Below, in pieces: positions 33,291-59,597 of a stretch of DNA of 64,000 nucleotides. Where the stretch lies: the NCBI GenBank assembly GCA_046563655.1, contig JAJCTO010000009.1, forward strand, positions 806,001 to 870,000. The letters are read 5' to 3'. The notes beneath the pieces were generated by a model. It searched no databases. It saw only the letters and a list, made by a program, of their open reading frames with translations, and was not told where the DNA came from. This stretch comes from Yuukianura sp. NJ FZ-2021 (taxonomy: Eukaryota). How positions within the stretch are numbered: the first letter of the stretch is position 1; each line of letters starts with the position of its first letter. A program made the translations under genes and the position numbers.

Positions 33291-36200
33291 GCAACAAGTG
33301 CATAAATCTAACTGTCATTTTGGTATAAACTAATGTGGGAACTATACAACGAAGTTTTAAGCATACCGAAAAATGGAATTTATGCCTTGTTATCGCTTAT
33401 AACCATGTTCATGGAACGCATCTAATACCGGTCCACTTTGTCGTTGTGCATCAAAGACTATTACACACGGTGAACCACTTGTTGTCAGCCTTCATCTTTG
33501 AGCTCAAAGGAGAAGTGCCGGTGAAATGACAAGCTCGCCCTCACTACAAATAACAACCAGTACTCATTTTGACACCATGATACACAATAACTCCGACGGC
33601 AATGGAGCTTCAGGGGATCCCATCATTACATTTTCTAAATCAAAATCGAACATTCCGCATTATTTGTTATTTTGATTAAAATTGTTAGGAAAGACTTTTT
33701 TATGTCATACTACCACCTTGCACTTCCAACAAAACACACCTGAATAACTGGTGTTCAACAATAATCTGGAATTATATTTTAGCTCAGCTCCACTATGCAA
33801 CAAGTGCATAAATCTAACTGTCATTTTGGTATAAACTAATGTAGGAACTATACAACGAAGTTTTAAACATACTGAAAAATGGAATTTATGCCTTGTTATC
33901 GCTTATAACCATCTTCATGGAACGCATCTAATACCGGTCCACTTTGTCGTTGTGCATCAAAGACTATTACACACGGTGAACCACTTGTTGTCAGCCTTCA
34001 TCTTTGAGCTCAAAGGAGAAGTGCCGGTGAAATGACAAGCTCGCCCTCACTAAAAATAACAACCAGTACTCATTTTGACACCATGATACACAATAACTCC
34101 GACGGCAATGGAGCTTCAGGGGATCCCATCATTACATTTTCTAAATCAAAATCGAACATTCCGCATTATTTGTTATTTTGATTAAAATTGTTAGGAAAGA
34201 CTTTTTTATGTCATACTACCACCTTGCACTTCCAACAAAACACACCTGAATAACTGGTGTTCAACAATAATCTGGAATTATATTTTAGCCCAACTCCACT
34301 ATGCAACAAGTGCATAAATCTAACTGTCATTTTGGTATAAACTAATGTAGGAACTATACAACGAAGTTTTAAACATACTGAAAAATGGAATTTATGCCTT
34401 GTTATCGCTTATAACCATCTTCATGGAACGCATCTAATACCGGTCCACTTTGTTGTAGTGCATCAACGACTATTACACACGGTGAACCACTTGTTGTCAG
34501 CCTTCATCTTTGGGCACAAAGGAGAAGTGCCGGTGAAATGACAAGCTCGCCCTCACTGCAGATACCAACCAGTACTCATTTTGACACTATGAATCACAAT
34601 GACTCAGACGGCAACTGAACTTCAGGGGAAATCCCATTATTAAGTTTTCTAAATCAAAATCGAACATTTAGCATTATTTGTTATTTTGATTAAAATTTTT
34701 AGGAAAATGCTTTTTTATGTCATACTACCACCTTGCACTTCCAATAAAGCACACCTGAATAACTGGTGCTCAACACTAATCTGGAATTATATTTTAGCCC
34801 AACTCCACTATGCAACAAGTGCATAAATCTAACTGTCATTTTGGTATAAACTAATGTGGGAACTATACAACGAAGTTTTAAACATACTGAAAAATGGAAT
34901 TTATGCCTTGTTATCGCTTCTAACCATCTTCAGGGAACGCATCTAATACCGGCCCACTTTGTCGTTGTGCATCAACGACTATTACACACGGTGAACCACT
35001 TGTTGTCAGCCTTCATCTTTGAGCTCAAAGGAGAAGTGCCGGTGAAATGACAAGCTCGCCCTCACTACAGATACCAACCAGTACTCATTTGGACACTATG
35101 AATCACAATGACTCAGACGGCAACTGAACTTCAGGGGAAATCCCATTATTAAGTTTTCTAAATCAAAATCGAACATTTAGCATTATTTGTTATTTTGATT
35201 AAAATTTTTAGAAATACTTTTTTATGTCATACTACCACCTTGCACTTCCAATAAAGCACACCTGAATAACTGGTGTTCAACAATAATCTGGAATTATATT
35301 TTAGCCCAACTCCACTATGCAACAAGTGCATAAATCTAACTGTCATTTTGGTATAAACTAATGTGGGAACTATACAACGAAGTTTTAAACATACTGAAAA
35401 ATGGAATTTATGCCTTGTTATCGCTTATAACCATCTTCATGGAACGCATCTAATACCGGTCCACTTTGTCGTAGTGCATCAACGACTATTACACACGGTG
35501 AACCACTTGTTGTCAGCCTTCATCTTTGAGCTCAAAGGAGAAGTGCCGGTGAAATGACAAGCTCGCCCTCACTACAAATAACAACCAGTACTCATTTTGA
35601 CACCATGATACACAATAACTCCGACGGCAATGCAGCTTCAGGGGATCCCATCATTACATTTTCTAAATCAAAATCGAACATTCCGCATTATTTGTTATTT
35701 TGATTAAAATTGTTAGGAAAGACTTTTTTATGTCATACTACCACCTTGCACTTCCAACAAAACACACCTGAATAACTGGTGTTCAACAATAATCTGGAAT
35801 TATATTTTAGCTCAGCTCCACTATGCAACAAGTGCATAAATCTAACTGTCATTTTGGTATAAACTAATGTAGGAACTATACAACGAAGTTTTAAACATAC
35901 TGAAAAATGGAATTTATGCCTTGTTATCGCTTATAACCATCTTCATGGAACGCATCTAATACCGGTCCACTTTGTCGTAGTGCATCAACGACTATTACAC
36001 ACGGTGAACCACTTGTTGTCAGCCTTCATCTTTGAGCACAAAGGAGAAGTGCCGGTGAAATGACAAGCTCGCCCTCACTGCAGATACCAACCAGTACTCA
36101 TTTTGACACTATGAATCACAATGACTCAGACGGCAACTGAACTTCAGGGGAAATCCCATTATTAAGTTTTCTAAATCAAAATCGAACATTCAGCATTAAT

Positions 36201-39200
36201 TGTTATTTTGATTAAAAGTTTTAGGAAATACTTTTTTATGTCATACTTCCAATAAAGCACACCTGAGTAACTGGTGTTCAACAATAATCTGGAATTATAT
36301 TTTAGCCCAACTCCACTATGCAACAAATGCATTAATCTAACCGTCATTTAGGTTTAACTAATGTGTGAACAATACAACGAAATTTTAAACATACTGAAAA
36401 ATGGAATTTATGCCTTGTTATCGCTTATAACCATCTTCATGGAACGCATCTAATACCGGTCCACTTTGTCGTAGTGCATCAACGACTATTACACACGGTG
36501 AACCACTTGTTGTCAGCCTTCATCTTTGAGCTCAAAGGAGAAGTGCCGGTGAAATGACAAGCTCGCCCTCACTACAGATACCAACCGGTACTCATTTTGA
36601 CACTGTGAATCACAATGACTCAGACGGCAACTGAAGTTCAGGGGAAATCCCATTATTACATTTTCTAAATCAAAATCGAACATTCCGCAGTGTTTGTTAT
36701 TTTGATTAAAATTGTTAGGAAAGACTTTTTTATGTCATACTACCACCTTGCACTTTCCAATAAAGCACACCTGAGTAACTGGTGTTCAACAATAATCTGG
36801 AATTATATTTTAGCCCAACTCCACTATGCAACAAGTGCATAAATCTAACTGTCATTTTGGTATAAACTAATGTGGGAACTATACAACGAAATTTTAAACA
36901 TACTGAAAAATGGAATTTATGCCTTGTTATCGCTTATAACCATCTTCATGGAACGCATCTAATACCGGTCCACTTTGTCGTAGTGCATCAACGACTATTA
37001 CACACGGTGAACCACTTGTTGTCAGCCTTCATCTTTGAGCTCAAAGGAGAAGTGCCGGTGAAATGACAAGCTCGCCCTCACTACAAATAACAACCAGTAC
37101 TCATTTTGACACCATGATACACAATGACTCCGACGGCAATGGAGCTTCAGGGGAATCCCATTATTACATTTTCTAAATCAAAATCGAACATTCCGCATTA
37201 TTTGTTATTTTGATTAAAATTGTTAGGAAACACTTTTTTATGTCATACTACCACCTTGCACTTCCAACAAAACACACCTGAATAACTAACTGGTGCTCAA
37301 CACTAATCTGGAATTATGTTTTAGCCCAACTCCACTATGCAACAAGTGCATAAATCTAACTGTCATTTTGGTATAAACTAATGTGGGAACTATACAACGA
37401 AGTTTTAAACATACCGAAAAATGGAATTTATGCCTTGTTATCGCTTATAACCATGTTCATGGAACGCATCTAATACCGGTCCACTTTGTCGTTGTGCATC
37501 AAAGACTATTACACACGGTGAACCACTTGTTGTCAGCCTTCATCTTTGAGCTCAAAGGAGAAGTGCCGGTGAAATGACAAGCTCGCCCTCACTACAAATA
37601 ACAACCAGTACTCATTTTGACACAATGATACACAATGACTCCGACGGCAATGGAGCTTCAGGGGATCCCATCATTACATTTTCTAAATCAAAATCGAACA
37701 TTCCGCATTATTTGTTATTTTGATTAAAATTGTTAGGAAAGACTTTTTTATGTCATACTACCACCTTGCACTTCCAACAAAACACACCTGAATAACTGGT
37801 GTTCAACAATAATCTGGAATTATATTTTAGCTCAGCTCCACTATGCAACAAGTGCATAAATCTAACTGTCATTTTGGTATAAACTAATGTAGGAACTATA
37901 CAACGAAGTTTTAAACATACTGAAAAATGGAATTTATGCCTTGTTATCGCTTATAACCATCTTCATGGAACGCATCTAATACCGGTCCACTTTGTTGTAG
38001 TGCATCAACGACTATTACACACGGTGAACCACTTGTTGTCAGCCTTCATCTTTGGGCACAAAGGAGAAGTGCCGGTGAAATGACAAGCTCGCCCTCACTG
38101 CAGATACCAACCAGTACTCATTTTGACACTATGAATCACAATGACTCAGACGGCAACTGAACTTCAGGGGAAATCCCATTATTAAGTTTTCTAAATCAAA
38201 ATCGAACATTTAGCATTATTTGTTATTTTGATTAAAATTTTTAGAAAATACTTTTTTATGTCATACTACCACCTTGCACTTCCAATAAAGCACACCTGAA
38301 AAACTGGTGTTCAACACTAATCTGGAATTATATTTTAGCCCAACTCCACTATGCAACAAGTGCATAAATCTGACTGTCATTTTGGTATAAACTAATGTGG
38401 GAACTATACAACGAAGTTTTAAGCATACCGAAAAATGGAATTTATGCCTTGTTATCGCTTATAACCATGTTCATGGAACGCATCTAATACCGGTCCACTT
38501 TGTCGTTGTGCATCAAAGACTATTACACACGGTGAACCACTTGTTGTCAGCCTTCATCTTTGAGCTCAAAGGAGAAGTGCCGGTGAAATGACAAGCTCGC
38601 CCTCACTGCAGATACCAACCAGTACTCATTTTGACACTATGAATCACAATGACTCAGACGGCAACTGAACTTCAGGGGAAATCCCATTATTAAGTTTTCT
38701 AAATCAAAATCGAACATTTAGCATTATTTGTTATTTTGATTAAAATTTTTAGAAAATACTTTTTTATGTCATACTACCACCTTGCACTTCCAATAAAGCA
38801 CACCTGAAAAACTGGTGTTCAACACTAATCTGGAATTATATTTTAGCCCAACTCCACTATGCAACAAGTGCATAAATCTGACTGTCATTTTGGTATAAAC
38901 TAATGTGGGAACTATACAACGAAGTTTTAAGCATACTGAAAAATGGAATTTATGCCTTGTTATCGCTTATAACTATCTTCATGGAACGCATCTAATACCG
39001 GTCCACTTTGTCGTAGTGCATCAACGACTTATACACACGATGAACCACTTGTTGTCAGCCTTCATCTTTGAGCTCAAAGGAGAAGTGCCGGTGAAATGAC
39101 AAGCTCGCCCTCACTACAAATAACAACCAGTACTCATTTTGACACTATGAATACACAATGACTCCGACGGCAATGCAGCTTCAGGGGATCCCATCATTAC

Positions 39201-42200
39201 ATTTTCTAAATCAAAATCGAACATTCCGCATTATTTGTTATTTTGATTAAAATTGTTAGGAAAGACTTTTTTATGTCATACTACCACCTTGCACTTCCAA
39301 CAAAACACACCTGAATAACTGGTGTTCAACAATAATCTGGAATTATATTTTAGCTCAGCTCCACTATGCAACAAGTGCATAAATCTAACTGTCATTTTGG
39401 TATAAACTAATGTAGGAACTATACAACGAAGTTTTAAACATACTGAAAAGTGGAATTTATGCCTTGTTATCGCTTATAACCATCTTCATGGAACGCATCT
39501 AATACCGGTCCTTTTTGTTGTAGTGCATCAACGACTATTACACACGGTGAACCACTTGTTGTCAGCCTTCATCTTTGAGCAGAAAGGAAAAGTGCCGGTG
39601 AAATGACAAGCTCGCCCTCACTACAGATACCAACCAGTACTCATTTTGACACTATGAATCACAATGACTCAGACGGCAACTGAACTTCAGGGGAAATCCC
39701 ATTATTACATTTTCTAAATCAAAATCGAACATTCATCATTATTTGTTATTTTGATTAAAATTTTTAGGAAATACTTTTTTATGTCATACTACCACCTTGC
39801 ACTTTCAATAAAGCACACCTGAGTAACTGGTGTTCAACAATAATCTGGAATTTATTTTAGCCCAACTCCACTATGCAACAAATGCATTAATCTAACCGTC
39901 ATTTAGGTTTAACTAATGTGTGAACAATACAACGAAATTTTAAACATACTGAAAAATGGAATTTATGCCTTGTTATCGCTTATAACCATCTTCATGGAAC
40001 GCATCTAATACCGGTCCACTTTGTCGTAGTGCATCAACGACTATTACACACGGTGAACCACTTGTTGTCAGCCTTCATCTTTGAGCTCAAAGGAGAAGTG
40101 CCGGTGAAATGACAAGCTCGCCCTCACTACAGATACCAACCAGTACTCATTTTGACACTATGAATCACAATGACTCAGACGGCAACTGAACTTCAGGGGA
40201 AATCCCATTATTACATTTTCTAAATCAAAATCGAACATTCAGCATTATTTGTTATTTTGATTAAAATTGTTAGGAAAGACTTTTTTATGTCATACTACCA
40301 CCTTGCACTTTCAATAAAGCACACCTGAGTAACTGATGTTCAACAATAATCTGGAATTATATTTTACCCCAACTCCACTATGCAACAAATGCATTAATCT
40401 AACCGTCATTTAGGTTTAACTAATGTGTGAACAATACAACGAAATTTTAAACATACTGAAAAATGGAATTTATGCCTTGTTATCGCTTATAACCATCTTC
40501 ATGGAACGCATCTAATACCGGTCCACTTTGTCGTAGTGCATCAACGACTATTACACACGGTGAACCACTTGTTGTCAGCCTTCATCTTTGAGCTCAAAGG
40601 AGAAGTGCCGGTGAAATGACAAGCTCGCCCTCACTACAAATACCAACCAGTACTCATTTTGACACCATGATACACAATGACTCCGACGGCAATGGAACTT
40701 CAGGGGAAATCCCATTATTACATTTTCTAAATCAAAATCGAACATTCCGCATTATTTGTTATTTTGATTAAAATTGTTAGGAAAGACTTTTTATGTCATA
40801 CTACCACCTTGCACTTCCAACAAAACACACCTGAATAACTAACTGGTGCTCAACAATAATCTGGAATTATATTTTAGCCCAACTCCACTATGCAACAAGT
40901 GCATAAATCTAACTGTCATTTTGGTATAAACTAATGTGGGAACTATACAACGAAGTTTTAAACATACTGAAAAATGGAATTTATGCCTTGTTATCGCTTA
41001 TAACCATCTTCATGGAACGCATCTAATACCGGTCCACTTTGTCGTAGTGCATCAACGACTATTACACACGGTGAACCACTTGTTGTCAGCCTTCATCTTT
41101 GGGCACAAAGGAGAAGTGCCGGTGAAATGACAAGCTCGCCCTCACTACAGATACCAACCAGTACTCATTTTGACACTATGAATCACAATGACTCAGACGG
41201 CAAATGAACTTCAGGGGAAATCCCATTATTACATTTTCTAAATCAAAATCGAACATTCAGCATTATTTGTTATTTTGATTAAAATTTGTTGGAAATACTT
41301 TTTTATGTCATACTACCACCTTGCACTTTCAATAAAGCACACCTGAGTAACTGGTGTTCAACAATAATCTGGAATTTATTTTAGCCCAACTCCAGTATGC
41401 AACAAGTGCATAAATCTAACTGTCATTTTGGTATAAACTAATGTGTGAACAATACAACGAAATTTTAAACATACTGAAAAATGGAATTTATGCCTTGTTA
41501 TCGCTTATAACCATCTTCATGGAACGCATCTAATACCGGTCCACTTTGTCGTAGTGCATCAACGACTATTACACACGGTGAACCACTTGTTGTCAGCCTT
41601 CATCTTTGAGCTCAAAGGAGAAGTGCCGGTGAAATGACAAGCTCGCCCTCACTACAGATACCAACCAGTACTCATTTTGACACTGTGAATCACAATGACT
41701 CAGACGGCAACTGAACTTCAGGGGAAATCCCATTATTACATTTTCTAAATCAAAATCGAACATTCAGCATTATTTGTTATTTTGATTAAAATTTTTAGAA
41801 AATACTTTTTTATGTCATACTACCACCTTGCACTTCCAATAAAGCACACCTGAATAACTGGTGTTCAACACTAATCTGGAATTATATTTTAGCCCAACTC
41901 CACTATGCAACAAGTGCATAAATCTAACTGTCATTTTGGTATAAACTAATGTGGGAACTATACAACGAAGTTTTAAACATACCGAAAAATGGAATTTATG
42001 CCTTGTTATCGCTTATAACCATGTTCATGGAACGCATCTAATACCGGTCCACTTTGTCGTAGTGCATCAACGACTATTACACACGGTGAACCACTTGTTG
42101 TCAGCCTTCATCTTTGAGCTCAAAGGAGAAGTGCCGGTGAAATGACAAGCTCGCCCTCACTACAAATACCAACCAGTACTCATTTTGACACCATGAATCA

Positions 42201-45200
42201 CAATGACTCCGACGGCAATTTAGCTTCAGGGGATCCCATTATTACATTTTCTAAATCAAAATCGAACATTCCGCATTATTTGTTTTTTTGATTAAAATTG
42301 TTAGGAAAGACATTTTTATGTCATACTACCACCTTGCACTTCCAATAAAGCACACCTGAATAACTGGTGTTCAACAATTATCTGGAATTATATTTTAGCC
42401 CAACTCCACTATGCAACAAGTGCATAAATCTAACCGTCATTTAGGTTTAAACTAATGTGTGAACTATACAACGAAATTTTAAACATACTGAAAAATGGAA
42501 TTTATGCCTTGTTATTGCTTATAACGTCTTCATGGAACGCATCTAATACCGGTCCACTTTGTCGTAGTGCATCAACGACTATTACACACGGTGAACCACT
42601 TGTTGTCAGCCTTCATCTTTGAGCTCAAAAGAGAAGTGCCGGTGAAATGACAAGCTCGCCCTCACTACAGATACCAACCAGTACTCATTTTGACACTATG
42701 AATCACAATGACTCAGACGGCAACTGAACTTCAGGGGAAATCACATTATTACATTTTCTAAATCAAAATCGAACATTCAGCATTATTTGTTATTTTGATT
42801 AAAATTTTTAGAAAATACTTTTTTATGTCATACTACCACCTTGCACTTCCGATAAAGCACACCTGAATAACTGGTGCTCAACACTAATCTGGAATTATAT
42901 TTTAGCCCAACTCCACTATGCAACAAGTGCTTAAATCTAACTGTCATTTTGGTATAAACTAATGTGGGAACTATACAACGAAGTTTTAAACATACCGAAA
43001 AATGGAATTTATGCCTTGTTATCGCTCATAACCATGTTCATGAAACGCATCTAGTACCGGTCCACTTTGTCGTAGTGCATCAACGACTATTACACACGGT
43101 GAACCAATTGTTGTCAGCCTTCACATTTGAGCTCAAAGGAGAAGTGCCGGTGAAATGACAAGCTCGCCCTCACTACAAATACCAACCAGTACTCATTTTG
43201 ACACCATGAATCACAATGACTCCGACGGCAATTTAGCTTCAGGGGATCCCATTATTACATTTTCTAAATCAAAATCGAACATTCCGCATTATTTGTTTTT
43301 TTGATTAAAATTGTTAGGAAAGACATTTTTATGTCATACTACCACCTTGCACTTCCAATAAAGCACACCTGAATAACTGGTGTTCAACAATTATCTGGAA
43401 TTATATTTTAGCCCAACTCCACTATGCAACAAGTGCATAAATCTAACCGTCATTTAGGTTTAACTAATGTGTGAACTATACAACGAAATTTTAAACATAC
43501 TGAAAAATGGAATTTATGCCTTGTTATTGCTTATAACGTCTTCATGGAACGCATCTAATACCGGTCCACTTTGTCGTAGTGCATCAACGACTATTACACA
43601 CGGTGAACCACTTGTTGTCAGCCTTCATCTTTGAGCTCAAAAGAGAAGTGCCGGTGAAATGACAAGCTCGCCCTCACTACAGATACCAACCAGTACTCAT
43701 TTTGACACTATGAATCACAATGACTCAGACGGCAACTGAACTTCAGGGGAAATCACATTATTACATTTTCTAAATCAAAATCGAACATTCCGCAGTTTTT
43801 GTTATTTTGATTTAAAATTGTTAGGAAAGACTTTTTATGTCATACTACCACCTTGCACTTTCAATAAAGCACACCTCGGTAACTGATGTTCAACAATAAT
43901 CTGGAATTATATTTTACCCCAACTCCACTATGCAACAAATGCATTAATCTAACCGTCATTTAGGTTTAACTAATGTGTGAACAATACAACGAAATTTTAA
44001 ACATACTGAAAAATGGAATTTATGCCTTGTTATCGCTTATAACCATCTTCATGGAACGCATCTAATACCGGTCCACTTTGTCGTAGTGCATCAACGACTA
44101 TTACACACGGTGAACCACTTGTTGTCAGCCTTCATCTTTGAGCACAAAGGAGAAGTGCCGGTGAAATGACAAGCTCGCCCTCACTACAGATACCAACCAG
44201 TACTCATTTTGACACTATGAATCACAATGACTCAGACGGCAACTGAACTTCAGGGGAAATCACATTATTACATTTTCTAAATCAAAATCGAACATTCCGC
44301 AGTTTTTGTTATTTTGATTTAAAATTGTTAGGAAAGACTTTTTATGTCATACTACCACCTTGCACTTTCAATAAAGCACACCTCAGTAACTGATGTTCAA
44401 CAATAATCTGGAATTATATTTTACCCCAACTCCACTATGCAACAAATGCATTAATCTAACCGTCATTTAGGTTTAACTAATGTGTGAACAATACAACGAA
44501 ATTTTAAACATACTGAAAAATGGAATTTATGCCTTGTTATCGCTTATAACCATCTTCATGGAACGCATCTAATACCGGTCCACTTTGTCGTAGTGCATCA
44601 ACGACTATTACACACGGTGAACCACTTGTTGTCAGCCTTCATCTTTGAGCACAAAGGAGAAGTGCCGGTGAAATGACAAGCTCGCCCTCACTACAGATAC
44701 CAACCAGTACTCATTTGGACACTATGAATCACAATGACTCAGACGGCAACTGAACTTCAGGGGAAATCACATTATTACATTTTCTAAATCAAAATCGAAC
44801 ATTCCGCAGTTTTTGTTATTTTGATTTAAAATTGTTAGGAAAGACTTTTTATGTCATACTACCACCTTGCACTTTCAATAAAGCACACCTCAGTAACTGA
44901 TGTTCAACAATAATCTGGAATTATATTTTACCCCAACTCCACTATGCAACAAATGCATTAATCTAACCGTCATTTAGGTTTAACTAATGTGTGAACAATA
45001 CAACGAAATTTTAAACATACTGAAAAATGGAATTTATGCCTTGTTATCGCTTATAACCATCTTCATGGAACGCATCTAATACCGGTCCACTTTGTCGTAG
45101 TGCATCAACGACTATTACACACGGTGAACCACTTGTTGTCAGCCTTCATCTTTGAGCACAAAGGAGAAGTGCCGGTGAAATGACAAGCTCGCCCTCACTA

Positions 45201-47537
45201 CAGATACCAACCAGTACTCATTTGGACACTATGAATCACAATGACTCAGACGGCAACTGAACTTCAGGGGAAATCACATTATTACATTTTCTAAATCAAA
45301 ATCGAACATTCCGCAGTTTTTGTTATTTTGATTTAAATTGTTAGGAAAGACTTTTTATGTCATACTACCACCTTGCACTTTCAATAAAGCACACCTCAGT
45401 AACTGATGTTCAACAATAATCTGGAATTATATTTTACCCCAACTCCACTATGCAACAAATGCATTAATCTAACCGTCATTTAGGTTTAACTAATGTGTGA
45501 ACAATACAACGAAATTTTAAACATACTGAAAAATGGAATTTATGCCTTGTTATCGCTTATAACCATCTTCATGGAACGCATCTAATACCGGTCCACTTTG
45601 TCGTAGTGCATCAACGACTATTACACACGGTGAACCACTTGTTGTCAGCCTTCATCTTTGAGCACAAAGGAGAAGTGCCGGTGAAATGACAAGCTCGCCC
45701 TCACTACAGATACCAACCAGTACTCATTTTGACACTATGAATCACAATGACTCAGACGGCAACTGAACTTCAGGGGAAATCACATTATTACATTTTCTAA
45801 ATCAAAATCGAACATTCAGCATTATTTGTTATTTTGATTAAAATTTTTAGAAAATACTTTTTTATGTCATACTACCACCTTGCACTTCCAACAAAACACA
45901 CCTGAATAACTGGTGCTCAACACTAATCTGGAATTATGTTTTAGCCCAACTCCACTATGCAACAAGTGCATAAATCTAACTGTCATTTTGGTATAAACTA
46001 ATGTGGGAACTATACAACGAAGTTTTAAGCATACCGAAAAATGGAATTTATGCCTTGTTATCGCTTATAACCATGTTCATGGAACGCATCTAATACCGGT
46101 CCACTTTGTTGTAGTGCATCAACGACTATTACACACGGTGAACCACTTGTTGTCAGCCTTCATCTTTGGGCACAAAGGAGAAGTGCCGGTGAAATGACAA
46201 GCTCGCCCTCACTACAGATACCAACCAGTACTCATTTTGACACTATGAATCACAATGACTCAGACGGCAACTGAACTTCAGGGGAAATCCCATTATTACG
46301 TTTTCTAAATCAAAATCGAACATACAGCATTAATTGTTATTTTGATTAAAAGTTTTAGGAAATACTTTTTTATGTCATACTTCCAATAAAGCACACCTGA
46401 GTAACTGGTGTTCAACAATAATCTGGAATTATATTTTAGCCCAACTCCACTATGCAACAAATGCATTAATCTAACCGTCATTTAGGTTTAAACTAATGTG
46501 TGAACAATACAACGAAATTTTAAACATACTGAAAAATGGAATTTATGCCTTGTTATCGCTTATAACCATCTTCATGGAACGCATCTAATACCGGTCCACT
46601 TTGTCGTAGTGCATCAACGACTATTACACACGGTGAACCACTTGTTGTCAGCCTTCATCTTTGAGCACAAAGGAGAAGTGCCGGTGAAATGACAAGCTCG
46701 CCCTCACTACAAATACCAACCAGTACTCATTTTGACACTATGAATCACAATGACTCAGACGGCAACTGAACTTCAGGGGAAATCATATTATTACATTTTC
46801 TAAATCAAAATCGAACATTCCGCAGTGTTTGTTATTTTGATTAAAATTGTTATAAAAGACTTTTTTATGTCATACTACCACCTTGCACTTTCAATAAAGC
46901 ACACCTGGGTAACTGAAGTTCAACAATAATCTGGAATTATATTTTAGCCCAACTCCACTATGCAACAAATGCATTAATCTAACCGTCATTTAGGTTTAAC
47001 TAATGTGTGAACAATACAACGAAATTTTAAACATACTGAAAAATGGAATTTATGCCTTGTTATCGCTTATAACCATCTTCATGGAACGCATCTAATACCG
47101 GTCCACTTTGTCGTAGTGCATCAACGACTATTACACACGGTGAACCACTTGTTGTCAGCCTTCATCTTTGAGCACAAAGGAGAAGTGCCGGTGAAATGAC
47201 AAGCTCGCCCTCACTACAAATACCAACCAGTACTCATTTTGACACTATGAATCACAATGACTCAGACGGCAACTGAACTTCAGGGGAAATCACATTATTA
47301 CATTTTCTAAATCAAAATCGAACATTCCGCAGTGTTTGTTATTTTGATTAAAATTGTTATAAAAGACTTTTTTATGTCATACTACCACCTTGCACTTTCA
47401 ATAAAGCACACCTGGGTAACTGAAGTTCAACAATAATCTGGAATTATATTTTAGCCCAACTACACTATGCAACAAATGCATTAATCTAACCGTCATTTAG
47501 GTTTAACTAATGTGTGAACAATACAACGAAATTTTAA
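33291..47537. repeat. Same ~507 bp satellite, about 28 copies, between the LTR element and the LINE
   Basis: Resumes in register at GCAACAAGTG right after the LTR element and ends at ...CGAAATTTTAA before the LINE tail. Confidence 0.98.
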
Positions 47538-47757
47538 TCAATCAATCAATCAATTATTTATTTGATTTGGCCTTTTGCCCTATCAATACAAATCCTGCAG
47601 CTCGTTTAAGTTAAAGTAATAAATCAAATTAGCATGAGTCAAAACACGTAAAAAAAGGTAAAATAAGTAAGATGATGTAAGTAATACAGAGTCCATTATG
47701 AAATTTGGAGGATTTGATGATGTGTACCATGGGGGAGAATTTCCGGGGTGCCCGGGT

Positions 47758-50700
47758 TCATCGGTTCAGCGTTGGCTCGAACATTGACAGCACTCTTGGA
47801 TTTAATATGTGGAGGTTCTTGATAAATGTGATGTCTTTGGAATGTGAACTAACCCATACAATTGGGCATTGGTGCGGTGGGATGTGCAGATGGTTTCGGT
47901 GTGTATTAGTCTGTGGACAGGCCCATAGAGCGTGGTAATAAGACAGTTGGTCCCCACAGAAACTGCAGTACTTTTCTTTGAACTGGCCGAGGTCAAGCCA
48001 TTTTCGGTTGTGGTAGATCTGGTTCATGTTCAGTCGGATCTGAATGACTGTTCTGGTGAGGTAGGCCGGGAACCGTTTAGACAGTAATTCCTTCGCTGGG
48101 AAATCTTCCTCGAGGATAGAGTAGTGTGGTATGGAACGGGACAACGAAGCCCTTCTCTTGTCTGATTCCCGGTAGAAGTTCGCAAGGTTCTTGATTACTG
48201 TTTTTGTTTTTGCTCTGATGTCTTGAATGTTTCCACCATCATAGGCGCCCTCTTCCCCGATTTGAGTAAGGACAGCTCTAAGCTGTAGGCACCAGCTGTA
48301 TTTTTGGTCAGGTTGGAGTGACGTAACTTTCCTTAGTTGTTGATATGCGTTTTTGGTGAGGTCAGAACAGGATTTGGTATGTAATTTTGCGAACAAGTGC
48401 CAGGCTCTTTTGACAATTTCGAATTCTAAAGGAAGAGACTCAGTTTCCAGCCGTATGAAGTACCTGGGAGTAGTGAACGGTAATTGGAAAACTCGTTTGT
48501 AGTAGTTTTGTTGAACCGTTTCTACTAAGTTAGAGTGGGGTAAACCCCATGTTTCACAGTTGTATAAGGCTGTGGATTTTACTAGTGAATTTAGTAGCTT
48601 TTTGGCCGTCCATAGGTCGATGTACGCAGATTTCTTGAGTAAGCCAAAAACTGCTCCTTGTGCTGAAGTTCCTTTCTCTACTGCGCTCTTTGCATTTTTT
48701 TGGAATGTGCCGTTAGATTGGAAGGTCACACCAAGGTACTTATATTCTGCCACTGTTTCTATTCGAGTTCCATTCCAAAAGAACAGGTCGTCTTTCCGTA
48801 GTCTCCCCGATCGACGGAATGGTACAACCTTTGTTTTTGTGAGGTTGACCTGGAGACCTCTGGCTTTGAAGAAGTTGGAGGCGATTTTGATTTTCTCTTG
48901 AAGCAGCTCCTTGGACTGTGCTGTGATGACAAGGTCATCAGCGTATAAAAGAACATGAATAATGCGGGAGCCCAGAGTGTAGCCTTTGAGTAATGAATTG
49001 GTAAACCTGTTTACGAGGTCTTCAATGAACAGATTGAAAAGGGTGGGACTGGCAGATTCACCTTGGAGCACCCCTTTCATTATTTTAATCGGATCTGTAA
49101 GTCCTTCGCTGGTATTAACTTGGGTAGTGGCGTTGTCATAGAGGGACTTGAACACTTTTAGAAATTTGGTTGAGACGCCCATGTTTCCCAGGACCTCCCA
49201 TAGTAGAATGTGGTTTGGGGTGTCAAAAGCCTGTGACAAGTCAACGAATGCGACATATAACTCCTTTTGTTTCAACATCTGGCATTGAATCATAGCCATT
49301 AATGTAAATATGTGGTCAGTGCAGGATCTAGATTTTCTGAAGCCAGCTTGAAAATCCGAAATTTTGTTGTTGACATTTATCCAGTTGTTGAGTCTTGTGT
49401 TCATCACTTTAGTAAACAGCTTTAGAATCGTATTCATCAGCGAAATTGGACGGTAATTTTGCGGCTGGTCTTTTGGCCCTTTTTTGTATAATGGGAGTAT
49501 TCGAGTATTACACCAGTGAGTTGGCAGTATCCCGTTCTGGAGGATGTTTTGGAAGAGTGTAACTAGGAATATTAGAATGTTCGGGGTGGCCGCTTTCCAT
49601 AACTCATTCGGGATTCTGTCGGGGCCTGTTGCTTTGCGAGTTTTCAACGACTTTGTTGCCATCCTTATCTCAATTGCTGTTACGTCTCGATCTAGTATTT
49701 CATTTTCTACTAATGGTGTATGTAGGATTTGATGATTCGGGACGTCACGGGCTTTGAAGAGGTCCTGGAAATGTTGAAACCACGTATCCTTCGGGATTTT
49801 GTCTTGTGAGGTTGTTTGGGCTGTAAAGTATTTTACCGCCTTCCAGAAGTTTGCCGGGTCTTTGGATGAGTGTAGATGCGAGACAAAATTCGACAGGAAC
49901 AATGATTTCTTGTTAATTAGTTGCTGTTTGTATAGTTTCTGGGCTTCTATATAGAGTTGTGCACATGCCGCTCTGTTCTCTTCGTTGCACCTTCTTAACT
50001 TGCGGAGGGCATTGTTTTTCCTCCATTTCAAGGAGTTCAGCTCCGCGTCAAACCACTTAGGCTTTGGTCTTATTGGTTTTGGCTTTGACTTCGTGTGGTT
50101 GCCTGTTACCTTCGCTGTTTCTACGACTGTTTGTTGTAGTTGAAGGCTAGCTTCGTTTGCATCCTTGATGTCATAATTCAGTGAGGTCTCAAGAAGTTTA
50201 TAGAAGTCGTATTTTGCCATTTTTTCTGTAGGAATTATTAATTTCTCTTGGGTCAGGCCGCTGTGGTTCTGCGGTTGGTTCACCGTGTTTTGAAGGGAGA
50301 CGAGCAAAGGGAAGTGATCGGAGTGATGCCAGTCTAGTATTTTCAAGTCCCTAACGTTGCCTTGCCAGTTCTGGGATGTGAGCACAAGATCTACCACACT
50401 GCACCCTGCGTTTGCTGGGTTTATCATGGTTATTTCTCCTTGTTCATCTCCTGTTATTGCTCCATTACAAATTGTAAGGTTACTCTCGGCCGCAACTGAT
50501 AGCAGGTTTCTCCCGTTTCCATTTATGAACTTGTCCTTGCTTTTTCTTTTGTACAATGGAGTGGTGTTTCTGTCCCCGGTTCTTGAATTTAAGTCACCCA
50601 TTAGCAGTATTGGTTTGTTTGTGAATTTCAGAGTTTCAAGTGTATCAGTCACTAGTTTTTGGTTGGATTTGTCCGGAGGAATGTAGGCGAATAGCAGGAG

Positions 50701-51006
50701 AAATTGTGATTGATGATTGCGGACGGCTAGTAGTATTGAGTGCTCCGTCGTTTCTAGTAAAGTGATTTCTGAGTCTATTGAGCTGTGCCAGCCAAAAATG
50801 AAACCCCCGTAAGGACGTCCCCTGTCTTGTTTTTTGGCTAGGATTTGGTGAACTGTATATTGTTGCTGTAGTATGTGGTTTTTATAATTTTCCCATTGCA
50901 TTGATTCTGATAGGCAGAAAAGAGAAGGTTGGAGTGTCAAGAATTCGTTCCAGAAAGTCGGTCCTAAGTTATTTACACTTTTTGCATTCAAATAGAAGAT
51001 TGTCAT
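47758..51006 (-). CDS. LINE ORF2: AP endonuclease + reverse transcriptase + C-terminal Cys/His motif, 1082 aa
   Basis: CLSE, GDLNSR, SDHFP (APE). GPDRIP, NYRPISL, QAGFR, DLSQAFD, GVLQG, LYADD, YKYLG (RT). CSFCG...H...CP. Confidence 0.96.
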   Translation of the reverse strand: MTIFYLNAKSVNNLGPTFWNEFLTLQPSLFCLSESMQWENYKNHILQQQYTVHQILAKKQDRGRPYGGFIFGWHSSIDSEITLLETTEHSILLAVRNHQSQFLLLFAYIPPDKSNQKLVTDTLETLKFTNKPILLMGDLNSRTGDRNTTPLYKRKSKDKFINGNGRNLLSVAAESNLTICNGAITGDEQGEITMINPANAGCSVVDLVLTSQNWQGNVRDLKILDWHHSDHFPLLVSLQNTVNQPQNHSGLTQEKLIIPTEKMAKYDFYKLLETSLNYDIKDANEASLQLQQTVVETAKVTGNHTKSKPKPIRPKPKWFDAELNSLKWRKNNALRKLRRCNEENRAACAQLYIEAQKLYKQQLINKKSLFLSNFVSHLHSSKDPANFWKAVKYFTAQTTSQDKIPKDTWFQHFQDLFKARDVPNHQILHTPLVENEILDRDVTAIEIRMATKSLKTRKATGPDRIPNELWKAATPNILIFLVTLFQNILQNGILPTHWCNTRILPLYKKGPKDQPQNYRPISLMNTILKLFTKVMNTRLNNWINVNNKISDFQAGFRKSRSCTDHIFTLMAMIQCQMLKQKELYVAFVDLSQAFDTPNHILLWEVLGNMGVSTKFLKVFKSLYDNATTQVNTSEGLTDPIKIMKGVLQGESASPTLFNLFIEDLVNRFTNSLLKGYTLGSRIIHVLLYADDLVITAQSKELLQEKIKIASNFFKARGLQVNLTKTKVVPFRRSGRLRKDDLFFWNGTRIETVAEYKYLGVTFQSNGTFQKNAKSAVEKGTSAQGAVFGLLKKSAYIDLWTAKKLLNSLVKSTALYNCETWGLPHSNLVETVQQNYYKRVFQLPFTTPRYFIRLETESLPLEFEIVKRAWHLFAKLHTKSCSDLTKNAYQQLRKVTSLQPDQKYSWCLQLRAVLTQIGEEGAYDGGNIQDIRAKTKTVIKNLANFYRESDKRRASLSRSIPHYSILEEDFPAKELLSKRFPAYLTRTVIQIRLNMNQIYHNRKWLDLGQFKEKYCSFCGDQLSYYHALWACPQTNTHRNHLHIPPHQCPIVWVSSHSKDITFIKNLHILNPRVLSMFEPTLNR

Positions 51007-51081: not shown

Positions 51082-51843
51082 TCATTTTGGGGCAGGGAAT
51101 GAGCTTCGGGTGGCCGAAGCAAAAGTTCTGGGAATAGTAGGATTGGATGTTCCTGGCGCTAGAGTTCGGGAATCAGCGGCCCGTTGTCTTAACTCGCGAT
51201 TTTTTTGCCGTTCCATTCTGGTTTCCAGAGTAAGGTCTTCGGTAATGGAGTGTATGTCTTTATTTTGAATGAAGGTCTTCCGAAGCTGAAGGGCTTGCAT
51301 GCGTTGAGCGAATGTCGAAATGCGCACTTTGATTGGACGGGGCTTATCAGACGATGGGTTGAATTTTCCAATTCTGAATGCGTCTTCCACGTTGATCCGA
51401 ACTTTGTAGTGGTTAAAAAAGTCGTTGGTGATGTTCAACGTGTTTTCATTGGTAGTTTCCGAGAGTCCGTGGATCAGAATGTTGTTTCGTCTTAATTCGT
51501 CTGTAAGGCGGGAGTTCATTTTTTTCAGTTGATCAATTTCGTTTTGTTGTCGTTCCGTTTTGGATTGTAACTCTTCAATTTGTTCCTGGTATTTCTCAAG
51601 TTTGAGTTCAATGGAATCGCATCTAGCGTCAATTTTTGTTTCAATTCTTGTTTCCAAGTTTGCAAACATTTTTGTCATTGCCTCCATTAAGTCGTCGTTC
51701 GAATGATTTGATCGTTTTGAACTTGGTTCGATTCCAGCGTTTGGTTCCGAATCGGCAGCTCGTTTACTACCTTTACTTTGTGGCAGGAACGGAAGAGTTG
51801 TTTGCGACATGTTCTGTGATACGGGAGAACGTGAGATTGGCAT
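51082..51843 (-). CDS. LINE ORF1: coiled coil + RRM-type domain, 253 aa
   Basis: Coiled-coil region followed by LRRNNILIHGL, AFRIGK, PRPIKV, ITEDLT. Lies directly upstream of ORF2. Confidence 0.9.
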   Translation of the reverse strand: MPISRSPVSQNMSQTTLPFLPQSKGSKRAADSEPNAGIEPSSKRSNHSNDDLMEAMTKMFANLETRIETKIDARCDSIELKLEKYQEQIEELQSKTERQQNEIDQLKKMNSRLTDELRRNNILIHGLSETTNENTLNITNDFFNHYKVRINVEDAFRIGKFNPSSDKPRPIKVRISTFAQRMQALQLRKTFIQNKDIHSITEDLTLETRMERQKNRELRQRAADSRTLAPGTSNPTIPRTFASATRSSFPAPK

Positions 51844-51855
51844 CGACTGTCCTGT

Positions 51856-52563
51856 GGATTACTTTAACCAAGTTATCCTGAGGATTACTTTAACCAAGTT
51901 ATCCTGTGGATTACCTTCACCAGGTTATCCTGATGGATTACTTTAACCAAGTTATCCTGTGGATTACTTTAACCAAGTTATCCTGTGGATTACTTTAACC
52001 AAGTTATCCTGTGGATTACCTTCACCAGGTTATCCTGATGGATTACTTTAACCAAGTTATCCTGTGGATTACTTTAACCAAGTTATCCTGTGGATTACTT
52101 TAACCAAGGTATCCTGTGGATTACCTTCACCAGGTTATCCTGTTTTGATGGATTACTTTAACCAAGTTATCCTGTGGATTACTTTTACCAAGTTATCCTT
52201 TGGATTACTTTAACCAAGTTATCCTGTGGATTACTTTAACCAAGTTATCCTTTGGATTACTTTAACCAAGTTATCCTGTGGATTACTTTAACCAAGTTAT
52301 CCTTTGGATTACTTTAACCAAGTTATCCTGTGGGTTAGGTTAAGATAGATTTCCTGGAGATTGGTTAGACGCAGATGATTTCTTCAAAACTGGGTATGTC
52401 GATGTCCCTTTTACGCTTCCGTATGTTTGAAATGTGAAAACGATTTGTAGATATGTTTGACCGTCGGAGTTGGTTATCCTGTTTTGATGGATTACTTTAA
52501 TCAAGTTATCCTGTGGATTACTTTAACCAAGTTATCCTGTGGGTTATCCTAACCAGGTTATCC
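51856..52563. repeat. 26 bp minisatellite in LINE 5' UTR (18 tandem units at 51856-52328 plus 3 at 52489-52563)
   Basis: Unit GGATTACTTTAACCAAGTTATCC(TGT). Variant GGATTACCTTCACCAGGTTATCC at units 3, 7 and 11. Confidence 0.96.
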
Positions 52564-53159
52564 TGTGGAGATTGGTTAGAAAGATGTTTTATCAAAACTG
52601 GATATCTCGATGTCACTTTTACGCTTCCGTAATTTTCAGTTGACGAGTGGCACTTGCCTTTGCCGTTTAGTAGTTGATTGTTATTGATTATTGGTAGTCT
52701 GTTAGCCACTGATGATTCGTTTGTCCCGAGACACCAGGGTATTGCGTTACCTTGATTAGTGTTTGTAGTTGTCCACAAGTACGAAATTCGGTCAGCTGAT
52801 CGAAAAGTACTAAAAAATCCCACAATTAACTGCCTGGTACTGCCAATAGTGGTATCAGCGTGTTCGGGAAGAGTTCCTCTGTTGAATTCCAGTTGTTTCC
52901 AGTGACTCAGGTTAGTTAATTGGTAGTTAAAAATGATTAATTAGAGAGTCTATCTGCAGTCCTATCTGTGTCTGCACCCGGAAGAAGAGGAACCGATGAT
53001 GGGGGGTCAAGTAGTGGGAGTGTGACTCCCTCAGCTAGTTGTAAGGTTTTGAGTGTATGGATACTAACTGGCAACTGTAACCACAAATTCCAGAGATAAG
53101 TTGAATTATTGCTAAATGTTAATTAATACTGAACAGAACAATGAGATGAGATGCACTGG

Positions 53160-54976
53160 CTGAAAAATGGAATTTATGCCTTGTTATTGCTTATAACCAT
53201 CTTCATGGAACGCATCTAATACCGGTCCACTTTGTCGTAGTGCATCAACGACTATTACACACGGTGAACCACTTGTTGTCAGCCTTCATCTTTGAGCACA
53301 AAGGAGAAGTGCCGGTGAAATGACAAGCTCGCCCTCACTACAAATACCAACCAGTACTCATTTTGACACTATGAATCACAATGACTCAGACGGCAACTGA
53401 ACTTCAGGGGAAATCACATTATTACATTTTCTAAATCAAAATCGAACATTCCGCAGTGTTTGTTATTTTGATTAAAATTGTTATAAAAGACTTTTTTATG
53501 TCATACTACCACCTTGCACTTTCAATAAAGCACACCTGGGTAACTGAAGTTCAACAATAATCTGGAATTATATTTTAGCCCAACTACACTATGCAACAAA
53601 TGCATTAATCTAACCGTCATTTAGGTTTAACTAATGTGTGAACAATACAACGAAATTTTAAACATACTGAAAAATGGAATTTATGCCTTGCTATCGCTTA
53701 TAACCATCTTCATGGAACGCATCTAATACCGGTCCACTTTGTCGTAGTGCATCAACGACTATTACACACGGTGAACCACTTGTTGTCAGCCTTCATCTTT
53801 GAGCACAAAGGAGAAGTGCCGGTGAAATGACAAGCTCGCCCTCACTACAAATACCAACCAGTACTCATTTTGACACTATGAATCACAATGACTCAGACGG
53901 CAACTGAACTTCAGGGGAAATCACATTATTACATTTTCTAAATCAAAATCGAACATTCCGCAGTGTTTGTTATTTTGATTAAAATTGTTATAAAAGACTT
54001 TTTTATGTCATACTACCACCTTGCACTTTCAATAAAGCACACCTGGGTAACTGAAGTTCAACAATAATCTGGAATTATATTTTAGCCCAACTACACTATG
54101 CAACAAATGCATTAATCTAACCGTCATTTAGGTTTAACTAATGTGTGAACAATACAACGAAATTTTAAACATACTGAAAAATGGAATTTATGCCTTGCTA
54201 TCGCTTATAACCATCTTCATGGAACGCATCTAATACCGGTCCACTTTGTCGTAGTGCATCAACGACTATTACACACGGTGAACCACTTGTTGTCAGCCTT
54301 CATCTTTGAGCACAAAGGAGAAGTGCCGGTGAAATGACAAGCTCGCCCTCACTACAAATACCAACCAGTACTCATTTTGACACTATGAATCACAATGACT
54401 CAGACGGCAACTGAACTTCAGGGGAAATCACATTATTACATTTTCTAAATCAAAATCGAACATTCCGCAGTGTTTGTTATTTTGATTAAAATTGTTATAA
54501 AAGACTTTTTTATGTCATACTACCACCTTGCACTTTCAATAAAGCACACCTGGGTAACTGAAGTTCAACAATAATCTGGAATTATATTTTAGCCCAACTA
54601 CACTATGCAACAAATGCATTAATCTAACCGTCATTTAGGTTTAACTAATGTGTGAACAATACAACGAAATTTTAAACATACTGAAAAATGGAATTTATGC
54701 CTTGCTATCGCTTATAACCATCTTCATGGAACGCATCTAATACCGGTCCACTTTGTCGTAGTGCATCAACGACTATTACACACGGTGAACCACTTGTTGT
54801 CAGCCTTCATCTTTGTGCACAAAGGAGAAGTGCCGGTGAAATGACAAGCTCGCCCTCACTACAGATACCAACCAGTACTCATTTTGACACTATGAATCAC
54901 AATGACTCAGACGGCAACTGAACTTCAGGGGAAATCACATTATTACATTTTCTAAATCAAAATCGAACATTCCGCA
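53160..54976. repeat. Same satellite, ~3.6 nearly identical edge-variant monomers
   Basis: Resumes at CTGAAAAATGG. Carries the GTTATAAAAGAC / CTGGGTAACTGAAG variants also seen at 46850-47470. Confidence 0.97.
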
Positions 54977-55472
54977 TGTAGAATATAGCGCTAACCAACT
55001 ACCCGTCGATTACGCTATATCAATGGGAGTTCTGTAACTTGGCCGGCTCTCAAACGCTGCTAAATGGACTGATCGAATGGGCTGTGATGTTGTTAGTTTT
55101 ACTAGTTTATTAATATTCTTTACCAATTAAATCCAATTCTGACAACTTAGAAAACTTAACTTATGTGTTGTCTCTTCAAAGTCTGAATCTTGTCTTTTTT
55201 CTTACTTATTCTTATGGGAACACAACAAAAAGGGAAGGGAGACCAAAAAGCAGAATAGCCGGAGGACAGACGCGGACGCTATCCCTCGCACCCTATCTCC
55301 ACCCACTACACACAAACGCGACTTATGGCGAAGCTATAACTTATAGGAAACACTATAAATACTTAAATCTATAGGCCCACCAAGTCTCATGAAAAACTGA
55401 CCTTTCGTTTTTAAAGGGCGGGAAGTCAAACTTAAAAATAACAGAAAATATAAATAACCAAGTTATCCTACA
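54977..55472. mobile_element. Solo LTR (496 bp) of a second LTR family
   Basis: Ends TGTAGAATA...TATCCTACA (8/9 inverted). 5 bp TSD CCGCA at 54972-54976 and 55473-55477. Satellite continues in register. Confidence 0.88.
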
Positions 55473-56812: not shown

Positions 56813-56827
56813 CTTGTCGTTGTCAAA

Positions 56828-57083
56828 GCACGAATCCTTATAAATAAAAGCGCGAATCCATAAAAATGTGAGGCACGAATCCTTAAAATTGGTTAGCACG
56901 AATCCTTTTAATCTAAATTAAACTTACCTCAAATCCAAAAATACGTAAGTAGGGATGAATAGAATTGTAAGCTCGAATCCACAAGAATGGCTGGCACGAA
57001 TCCTTGAAGTCTTTTCTCAACAATTTGTGTTGATCCAAAAGAAGCAAAAGCACGAATGAACAAAATCGCTGGGCACGAATCCT
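56828..57083. repeat. Eight copies of GCACGAATCC(T)-like motif
   Basis: Starts at 56828, 56850, 56873, 56896, 56971, 56994, 57050, 57073. Confidence 0.9.
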
Positions 57084-59582: not shown

Positions 59583-59597
59583 CCTTGAAGTCAGCGG

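What the first reader, a model, noticed from the sequence alone, without database searches (positions are those of the whole stretch)
51856..52563. Array of ~21 hairpin units with a compensatory base-pair change, ending 12 bp before LINE ORF1
Seen: on the LINE sense strand each unit reads GGAUAACUU-GGUUA-AAGUAAUCC, a 9 bp stem with one A.A mismatch and a 5 nt loop. The variant at units 3, 7, 11 (plus strand GGATTACCT-TCACC-AGGTTATCC) changes both partners of one pair, so the stem is kept. It recurs every fourth unit (105 bp higher-order repeat). Inference: a multivalent RNA stem-loop array (ORF1p loading or translation control) or a dyad DNA-binding array acting as a modular promoter, analogous to mouse L1 monomers but much shorter. 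Each unit also holds GGATTA (TAATCC, the K50 homeodomain site). Caveat: the three variant copies probably descend from one event.
Basis: partly seen in the sequence, partly recalled or inferred. Interest (0 to 1): 0.72.

Follow-up and report, generated by a model that had tools for sequence, protein, structure and literature searches.

The report
LINE shares hairpin arrays with Gypsy
A jumping gene carries about twenty copies of a small RNA hairpin just before its first gene, and three kinds of such hairpin block each recur before the capsid gene of an unrelated retrovirus-like jumping gene in the same genome, which suggests that one element borrows the other's RNA docking signal.

Summary
The array is real: 18+3 units in the AUG-free 1.1-kb leader of an intact LINE, ending 12 nt before ORF1. 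Across 326 units in 19 elements, 5 of 8 stem pairs change on both sides, and the central A·A persists in 325. The new result is the sharing. This hairpin (type A), a homologous type B and an unrelated hexaloop type C each lie before ORF1 of this LINE lineage, and each also lies, in sense, before gag of a Ty3/Gypsy lineage. Of 287 genome-wide exact A/B matches, 286 are in these leaders. Type follows the Gypsy RT tree (few copies) but is scattered on the LINE tree, so the blocks were exchanged, probably Gypsy to LINE. ORF1p-specific loading, a TAATCC site and a monomer promoter are not supported. Best reading: a multivalent RNA docking cassette for Gypsy Gag, pirated by the LINE (0.38). A host RNA-binding protein is nearly as likely (0.32). 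No RNA, binding or cross-species data were obtained, and the strand test is weak. The scan had already noted multi-copy hairpins in LTR elements of this genome, but not LINE-Gypsy sharing.

The parts
51856..52328 (-). Main type-A hairpin array: 18 units (8 bp + A·A, GGUNA loop), 105-bp higher-order repeat in the ORF1-proximal part
52332..52354 (-). Degenerate unit at the 5' edge of the main block
   Evidence: 8 mismatches
52489..52563 (-). Upstream mini-array of 3 units (one degenerate), part of a ~208-nt duplication in the leader
51844..52961 (-). LINE 5' leader, 1118 nt, with no sense-strand ATG
   Evidence: 5' end inferred from the shared boundary of other copies
52796..52961 (-). Type-I 5' block, probable promoter module; 84% identical to sequence 247-411 nt upstream of the host RPB1 start codon
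51082..51843 (-). ORF1, 253 aa, coiled coil plus probable RRM; a second in-frame ATG lies 33 nt downstream
   Evidence: weak match to L1 ORF1p, E 0.045
47758..51006 (-). ORF2, 1082 aa from the first Met, AP endonuclease + reverse transcriptase, open frame
47536..47553 (-). (TTGA)n 3' tail
52979..53159 (-). Extra 182-bp piece at the 5' junction, 99% identical to a locus on another contig (possible template switch)
33291..47537 (.). ~507-bp satellite on the 3' side of the LINE; no target-site duplication, 5-7 bp missing at the site
53160..54977 (.). Same satellite resuming on the 5' side

Best explanation
The array is a multivalent RNA docking cassette in the mRNA leader, and it is not the LINE's own invention. 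SHOWN: each unit can fold into a short hairpin whose pairing, central A·A and RGU(N)A loop are kept while stem letters change. SHOWN: three motif types (A, B, C) each occur, in sense and next to the first AUG, in both this LINE lineage and a Ty3/Gypsy lineage, with identical main units. INFERRED (about 0.6): the blocks arose in the Gypsy clade, whose subfamilies each have their own repeated leader hairpin, and the LINE took them over at least three times, by template switching or conversion between RNAs or cDNAs. INFERRED (weakest step): the partner is Gypsy Gag, through its nucleocapsid. The hairpins would be subfamily-specific packaging or translation-switch sites, and a LINE RNA carrying them would be bound and possibly encapsidated by Gypsy Gag, gaining protection or transport.
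For: Covariation: pair 8 occurs as U-A 179, C-G 115, A-U 11, U·G 9, G·U 6 and unpaired 6 of 326 units. 93% of cells pair against 82% in shuffles and at most 52% in slid controls. The pairing axis lies inside the unit (296 of 301, against 214 of 301 across spacers), and spacer lengths vary from 1 to 10 nt. Sharing: type A before gag in L097-L099, B in L161 and L167, C in L179, with a shared ~45-nt flank for C. All 167 A and 120 B exact hits are accounted for, 286 of 287 in these leaders. Trees: the Gypsy RT tree is ((A,B),C),(D,F), matching motif relationships. The LINE ORF1 tree needs 4 type changes and rejects A monophyly, p = 1.7e-5. Window LINE versus its B-type sisters differs at 15-28% of ORF2 four-fold sites, Gypsy A versus B at 38% of pol sites. 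Gypsy holds the richer repertoire for A (7 versus 3 repeated variants) and C (15 versus 6-7). Gypsy C hairpins are spread over 1.1 kb. Gypsy D and E leaders have their own repeated hairpins, F two. Gag of A, B, C, D and F has a CCHC knuckle. None of 24 distant LINE loci shows such an array outside flanking satellite.
Against: No binding, expression or structure-probing data. Gypsy sampling is thin (A 3, B 2, C 1 copy with gag), so tracking of the tree is weakly tested. B and C monophyly in the LINE is not rejected (p = 0.14 and 0.08). The B repertoire is 4 versus 4. LINE lineages that carry arrays are as old as the Gypsy ones (up to 57-69% of four-fold sites differ), so LINE-to-Gypsy transfer remains possible. 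The strand test is weak: 34 G·U against 18 A·C units, but 11 against 10 distinct states, and 5 of 17 recurrent minor states are broken pairs. 3 of 13 Gypsy leaders lack repeated hairpins, one of them with a knuckle-bearing Gag. The E-type Gag shows no CCHC match, and its total hairpin count does not exceed shuffles. Gag bound next to the ORF1 AUG could harm LINE translation. All data come from one genome.
Confidence: 0.38

Rival explanations
1. The same RNA cassette, exchanged between the two lineages, but bound by host RNA-binding proteins that promote translation, export, stability or germ-line localisation of intronless element RNAs.
For: Two elements with non-homologous first proteins use identical units, which a host factor explains most simply. 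The array abuts the AUG (8-25 nt in 13 of 19 elements) in AUG-depleted leaders. Host recognition of paired stem-loops, including one from a LINE, is known for Egl-BicD (PMC13186709, passages).
Against: Loops differ between Gypsy subfamilies in step with the tree, which a fixed host protein does not predict. No host gene carries the A or B motif (286 of 287 hits are in these leaders). The units are short.
Confidence: 0.32
2. A DNA-level array of factor-binding sites (enhancer or insulator), like the gypsy, ZAM and Tirant 5' UTR repeats, with symmetry kept by arm-to-arm copying.
For: Precedent for tandem 5' UTR repeats and for a 13-bp DNA motif shared by LTR elements and a LINE (PMC8872304). The common arms fit RRRTAAYYY in direct orientation. 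The strand test is weak, and the main B units fold as well on the opposite strand.
Against: Stem letters vary freely while pairing is kept, including A-U and U-A transversions that break RRRTAAYYY. Arm copying should repair the central mismatch, yet 0 of 326 units do so. The orientation is always sense. TAATCC is in 1 of 155 B units.
Confidence: 0.13
3. One reading: the hairpins load the LINE's own ORF1p.
For: Position next to ORF1; ORF1p probably has an RRM.
Against: Array type is uncoupled from ORF1p sequence, and identical arrays precede gag in Gypsy elements.
Confidence: 0.07
4. No function: slippage-amplified palindromes, perhaps from AACCT-like simple repeats, moved about by gene conversion.
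For: Tandem expansion copies variants many times, so unit counts overstate events. GGTAACCT-type simple repeats exist elsewhere. A type-A Gypsy copy lies in the same satellite about 40 kb from the window, which could favour conversion.
Against: Three motif types sit at the same position in both lineages; at least 8 distinct both-side changes keep pairing; there are no free-standing arrays.
Confidence: 0.05

Closest known systems
Tandem 5' UTR repeats of Drosophila gypsy, ZAM, Tirant and accord; TERM motif also in the LINE Doc5 (PMC8872304; seen: first fifth of the text and passages)
   Same: Tandem repeats in retrotransposon leaders, and a motif shared between LTR elements and a LINE.
   Different: Those are described as DNA sites for host proteins, and the text has no 'stem' or 'hairpin'. 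Here whole arrays of covarying hairpins, of three types, are shared with identical main units.
Mouse and rat L1 5' UTR monomers and recurrent 5' UTR replacement in L1 (PMC5381506; passages)
   Same: A LINE lineage that repeatedly swaps 5' modules and has tandem units in its leader.
   Different: Monomers are ~200-650 bp promoter units separated from ORF1 by a tether. These are 22-44-nt hairpin units abutting the AUG, and the apparent exchange partner is an LTR element.
Retroviral and Ty1 packaging signals bound by Gag (search listing and abstract starts only; details recalled)
   Same: Stem-loops near the 5' end of the RNA, with a CCHC-knuckle Gag in the Gypsy carriers.
   Different: Here there are 15-30 near-identical short hairpins, also present in a non-LTR element that encodes no Gag. 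Gag binding is untested.
Egl-BicD localisation stem-loops, including the I-factor signal (PMC13186709; passages)
   Same: A LINE uses RNA stem-loops, and multivalency matters.
   Different: Those are bent, bulged stems with two spaced U-A pairs, used in pairs. These are 8-bp units with a symmetric A·A in tandem arrays.
ORF sharing between retroelement classes in bdelloid rotifers, DEDDy ORF3 (PMC5408684; passages)
   Same: Module exchange across retroelement classes; the Gypsy lineage here also has a 3'-5' exonuclease ORF3.
   Different: There the shared modules are protein-coding; here they are non-coding RNA arrays.

Membership tests
APE-type non-LTR retrotransposon (LINE) | ORF2 with AP endonuclease and RT | tested here: met
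   PF14529, PF00078; best PDB match L1 ORF2p, E 5.5e-52
APE-type non-LTR retrotransposon (LINE) | ORF1 with coiled coil and RRM | tested here: inconclusive
   Only coiled-coil-type Pfam hits below cut-off; L1 ORF1p E 0.045; Atlas leads
APE-type non-LTR retrotransposon (LINE) | 3' simple-repeat tail | tested here: met
   (TTGA)n
APE-type non-LTR retrotransposon (LINE) | Target-site duplication | tested here: not met
   5-7 bp missing instead, plus a 182-bp extra 5' piece
APE-type non-LTR retrotransposon (LINE) | Clade assignment by RT phylogeny (RTEX, L2, CR1, etc.) | not tested
   No clade-labelled references among the 120 listed homologues
Mouse L1-type monomer promoter | Long (~200 bp) monomers joined to ORF1 by a ~250-bp tether | tested here: not met
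   26-bp units ending 12 nt before the AUG, with a separate 5' block upstream; feature from PMC5381506
Mouse L1-type monomer promoter | Promoter activity of the units | not testable with these tools
   Needs a reporter or start-site data
gypsy/ZAM-type DNA insulator or enhancer repeats | Tandem repeat in the retrotransposon 5' UTR | tested here: met
gypsy/ZAM-type DNA insulator or enhancer repeats | Primary sequence motif conserved rather than base pairing | tested here: not met
   5 of 8 pairs change on both sides
gypsy/ZAM-type DNA insulator or enhancer repeats | Protein binding to the DNA, insulator or enhancer activity | not testable with these tools
   Needs a bench assay
Gag packaging signal (Psi-like) | Stem-loops between the 5' LTR and the gag AUG | tested here: met
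   Gypsy copy C9b: 1307 nt from LTR end to AUG, array in the last ~650 nt; primer-binding site not looked for
Gag packaging signal (Psi-like) | Cognate Gag with a nucleocapsid knuckle encoded in cis | tested here: not met
   Met for the Gypsy A, B and C carriers; the LINE of the window encodes no Gag
Gag packaging signal (Psi-like) | Specific Gag binding and encapsidation | not testable with these tools
   No protein-RNA test is offered
Egl-BicD localisation signal | Bent, bulged stem with two spaced U-A pairs | tested here: inconclusive
   A single unit is 8 bp + A·A; longer rods of several units can form in silico; feature from PMC13186709
Any Rfam family | Match at gathering score | tested here: not met
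   Only MIR6217 at 14.6 bits against a cut-off of 110

The most novel reading that the evidence does not exclude
This LINE lineage parasitises Gypsy capsids. It has repeatedly captured the subfamily-specific Gag-docking hairpin array of whichever Gypsy subfamily was active, so that its RNA or ribonucleoprotein is packaged, shielded and carried by LTR-element particles. That would be a non-LTR retrotransposon pirating an LTR element's packaging code.
Probability: 0.2. Interest if true: 0.92.

Novelty: new variant of a known kind. Interest (0 to 1): 0.78.

Why it matters
LINEs and LTR retrotransposons are treated as having separate RNA-protein logic. Three structured leader cassettes, each shared across the two classes in one genome, show that non-coding RNA modules move between them and are worth keeping. 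The system supplies natural compensatory series (types A, B, C, plus Gypsy-only D, E, F) matched to divergent Gag proteins. That makes two open questions directly testable: how Ty3/Gypsy Gag selects its RNA, and whether LINE RNA can use LTR-element particles. If a host protein is the partner instead, the arrays point to an undescribed multivalent translation, export or localisation element. I found no description in ten full-text searches of an open-access library. Subscription journals, Repbase and supplementary files were not seen.

Tried and rejected

Metagenome pattern scan: 2 loci, a GGTAACCT-type simple repeat and an isolated match, neither in a related element.

Viral-contig scans with Gag and ORF2 alignments: no relatives. 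Rfam: nothing.

Loose RRRTAAYYY pairs: 48 hits against 47 for the control with a 5-nt gap, and 37 against 16 with a 4-nt gap. No new array type appeared; three of the hits pointed to B arrays.

A loose type-C pattern was too noisy (238 hits against 63). The tight one (17 against 1) gave known carriers plus Gypsy-C relics.

The alternative pairing axis across the spacer was rejected. The K50 homeodomain site was rejected.

The Gypsy ORF3 exonuclease as hairpin binder is disfavoured: it was not detected in the C and F copies, which have hairpins, and is present in one copy that lacks them. The C copy is broken, so this is weak.

An RFX X-box at B junctions, nuclear-receptor half-sites, IRE and Smaug elements (all recalled, from no call) fit only one type or lack the required stem, and were dropped.

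Masked alignments found no shared flank for A or B beyond the units. The type-II 5' block was found only in the LINE copies and one short fragment; that fragment was not examined.

Rows dropped: two of three tandem-triplicated C3 copies from the unit table; isolated units more than 200 nt from an array; C4b from the ORF1 tree (54 codons); four ORF1 hits without a recognisable leader (L063, L065, L069, L070). The first ORF1 tree had insertion artefacts and was replaced. Copy C4a was labelled type II in the trees but has a type-I-like 5' end.

Full report
OBSERVATION. The array is as described, with small corrections. There are 18 units at 51856-52328, a degenerate unit at 52332 and three units at 52489-52563. 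The variant sits at units 3, 7 and 11, 105 bp apart. On the minus strand a unit folds as 4 bp, A·A, 4 bp and a 5-nt loop (-5.9 kcal/mol; variant -8.3). 19 of 21 units are fully paired. The array ends 12 nt before the first ATG of ORF1.

CONTEXT. The element is a minus-strand LINE from about 52961 to 47536, with ORF1 of 253 aa, an open ORF2 with AP endonuclease and RT and a (TTGA)n tail. It is inserted in a ~507-bp satellite without a target-site duplication. Its clade was not determined. The named relatives listed are arthropod LINE proteins, among them Folsomia and Orchesella. The 1118-nt leader has no sense ATG, against 14 antisense and about 14 in shuffles. Nine LINE leaders have 0-2 sense ATGs, except one with an insertion, which has 8. 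The array therefore most likely lies in a scanned mRNA leader.

THREE ARRAY TYPES IN THE LINE FAMILY. Searches of the 98.7-Mb genome gave relatives whose leaders carry one of three arrays next to ORF1. Type A is the window's. Type B is a homologous 22-nt unit (AGGUAACYC-AGUA-GRGUAACCU) that differs from A by three both-side changes, with the A·A kept. Type C is a 44-nt unit built from 4-bp stems with hexaloops. None of 24 loci of distant LINE families shows a repeated hairpin, apart from 6 where flanking satellite supplies one; some of these may be 5'-truncated.

THE SAME THREE TYPES IN A GYPSY LINEAGE. Type A lies in sense directly before gag in three Gypsy copies, type B in two (in L167 the gag start region is damaged) and type C in one, plus relics. 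These are LTR elements: gag with a CCHC knuckle, pol with protease, RT, RNase H and integrase, and LTRs in one copy. Exact patterns give 167 A and 120 B hits genome-wide with 0 control hits. All are accounted for, and 286 of 287 lie in these leaders. The main units are identical between the two classes. For C, about 45 nt of flank is shared too; for A and B none was found.

IS IT AN RNA STRUCTURE? I parsed 326 A/B units in 19 elements (14 LINE, 5 Gypsy). The A·A is kept in 325 and never repaired to a pair. Pair 8 takes five paired states (U-A 179, C-G 115, A-U 11, U·G 9, G·U 6) against 6 unpaired. Pairs 1, 3, 6 and 9 also change on both sides. On the 56 distinct units, broken ones included, 93% of cells pair against 82% in shuffles (0 of 500 reach it) and 21-52% in slid controls. 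The count of both-side pairs alone is not beyond shuffles (67 of 500), and the tool warns that relatedness inflates the first measure. Pairing is within units (296 of 301), not across spacers (214 of 301). For type C, 74 of 85 candidate stems in four leaders are fully Watson-Crick paired, with several stem spellings. Against: the strand test is weak (34 G·U against 18 A·C units, 11 against 10 distinct states), and 5 of 17 recurrent minor states are broken. Tandem copying means that units are not independent events. I put selection on an RNA hairpin at about 0.85.

HISTORY. In Gypsy the RT tree is ((A,B),C),(D,F) with starred support. D, E and, weakly, F leaders have their own repeated hairpins, and 3 of 13 leaders have none. 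In the LINE, type needs 4 changes on the ORF1 tree. A monophyly is rejected (p = 1.7e-5); B and C are not (0.14, 0.08). Identical B units sit in LINEs 55% identical in ORF1p, while A and B sit in LINEs 85-93% identical. The 5' blocks are shuffled independently of the arrays. Gypsy has more repeated A variants (7 against 3) and C variants (15 against 6-7), and equal B (4 against 4). Its C hairpins are dispersed over 1.1 kb. Exchange between the classes is very likely (about 0.9). The direction Gypsy to LINE is favoured but not shown (about 0.6), because Gypsy copies are few and array-bearing LINE lineages are also old.

MECHANISM. The partner should be trans-acting and not ORF1p-specific. Subfamily-specific loops that follow the Gypsy tree fit an element-encoded binder, most simply Gag. 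The LINE would then be pirating a packaging or translation-switch signal (0.38). Identical units in two unrelated elements beside the AUG fit a host RNA-binding protein nearly as well (0.32). A DNA-level array (0.13), ORF1p loading (0.07) and neutrality (0.05) fit worse. No step beyond structure, position and sharing is shown. No RNA run was listed and no leader from another species could be obtained.

COMPARISON. Tandem 5' UTR repeats and a DNA motif shared by LTR elements and a LINE are known in Drosophila (PMC8872304; first fifth of the text and passages). L1 monomers and 5' UTR replacement are known (PMC5381506; passages). ORF sharing across retroelement classes, including a DEDDy ORF3, is known from rotifers (PMC5408684; passages). 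Egl-BicD binds LINE stem-loops (PMC13186709; passages). PMC11203168 (passages) did not help with the clade. Gag packaging papers were seen only as a listing. Ten searches and Rfam gave no description of hairpin arrays shared by a LINE and a Gypsy element. Supplements and subscription journals were not seen. Earlier unchecked notes of this scan report multi-copy covarying hairpins in pol-less or non-coding LTR elements of this genome and suggest capsid docking. I had the Gag idea before reading them (note) and saw the E-type loop myself. They are leads, not support, and none shown mentions a LINE carrier.

VERDICT. Real, structured and surprising because of the three-fold sharing across retrotransposon classes; the mechanism is untested. 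New variant of a known kind, interest 0.78. If the LINE rides Gypsy capsids (probability 0.2), interest would be 0.92.

Noticed in passing
window 52796-52961 and L027 (G000:C2:8176744-8176908): The LINE's first ~165 nt are 84% identical, in the same sense, to sequence 247-411 nt upstream of the RPB1 start codon, between RPB1 and an S18 ribosomal-protein gene, with no LINE body nearby. A 73% copy lies at L239. It may be a captured host promoter or leader, or a stray LINE 5' fragment.
   Followed up: partly
L161:1-1416 (-) and related Gypsy copies: The Gypsy lineage has an ORF3 with a 3'-5' exonuclease domain (PF01612, E 6.5e-21), evolving faster than RT; it was not detected in the C and F copies.
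   Followed up: partly
L173-L180, L185-L191, L218-L224: Other Gypsy subfamilies have their own repeated leader hairpins: D (loops like UYGAW), E (CUGWAGA) and F (UAGAR, two copies). No LINE counterpart was found.
   Followed up: partly
window 52979-53159 and L100: 182 bp at the LINE's 5' junction is 99% identical to a locus on contig C8, suggesting a template switch during insertion.
   Followed up: partly
window 1-22424, 33291-47537, 53160-54977; L165/L166: A ~507-bp satellite at about 93-99% identity fills most of the window. A type-A Gypsy element lies in the same satellite about 40 kb away, and another in a 75% related satellite.
   Followed up: partly
window 55877-62538: A cluster with an integrase (PF00665) and frameshifted ORFs that look like a protein-primed DNA polymerase (recalled resemblance, no Pfam hit): Polinton-like.
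   Followed up: no
window 24477-27756: A Ty3 capsid-like ORF (PF19259) with degraded downstream ORFs inside the block that interrupts the satellite.
   Followed up: no
L066 and L067: The same ~340-bp solo-LTR-like sequence has inserted into two divergent B-type LINE copies, once inside a hairpin unit.
   Followed up: no
window 51810-51843; Gypsy gag starts: LINE ORF1 and the Gypsy A, B, C and F gag genes each have a second in-frame ATG after a short N-terminal extension; in these Gags the extension carries a TRSG(R) motif.
   Followed up: no
L009-L011 (G000:C3:1.23 Mb): An ORF1-plus-leader fragment without ORF2 is tandemly triplicated at about 3.1-kb spacing.
   Followed up: no
L162:2769-2791 and L232:3789-3842: A solitary perfect A-type unit lies outside any recognised element. 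Two C-like hairpins lie 40 bp apart near a gene that looks like poly(A)-binding protein (recalled resemblance).
   Followed up: no
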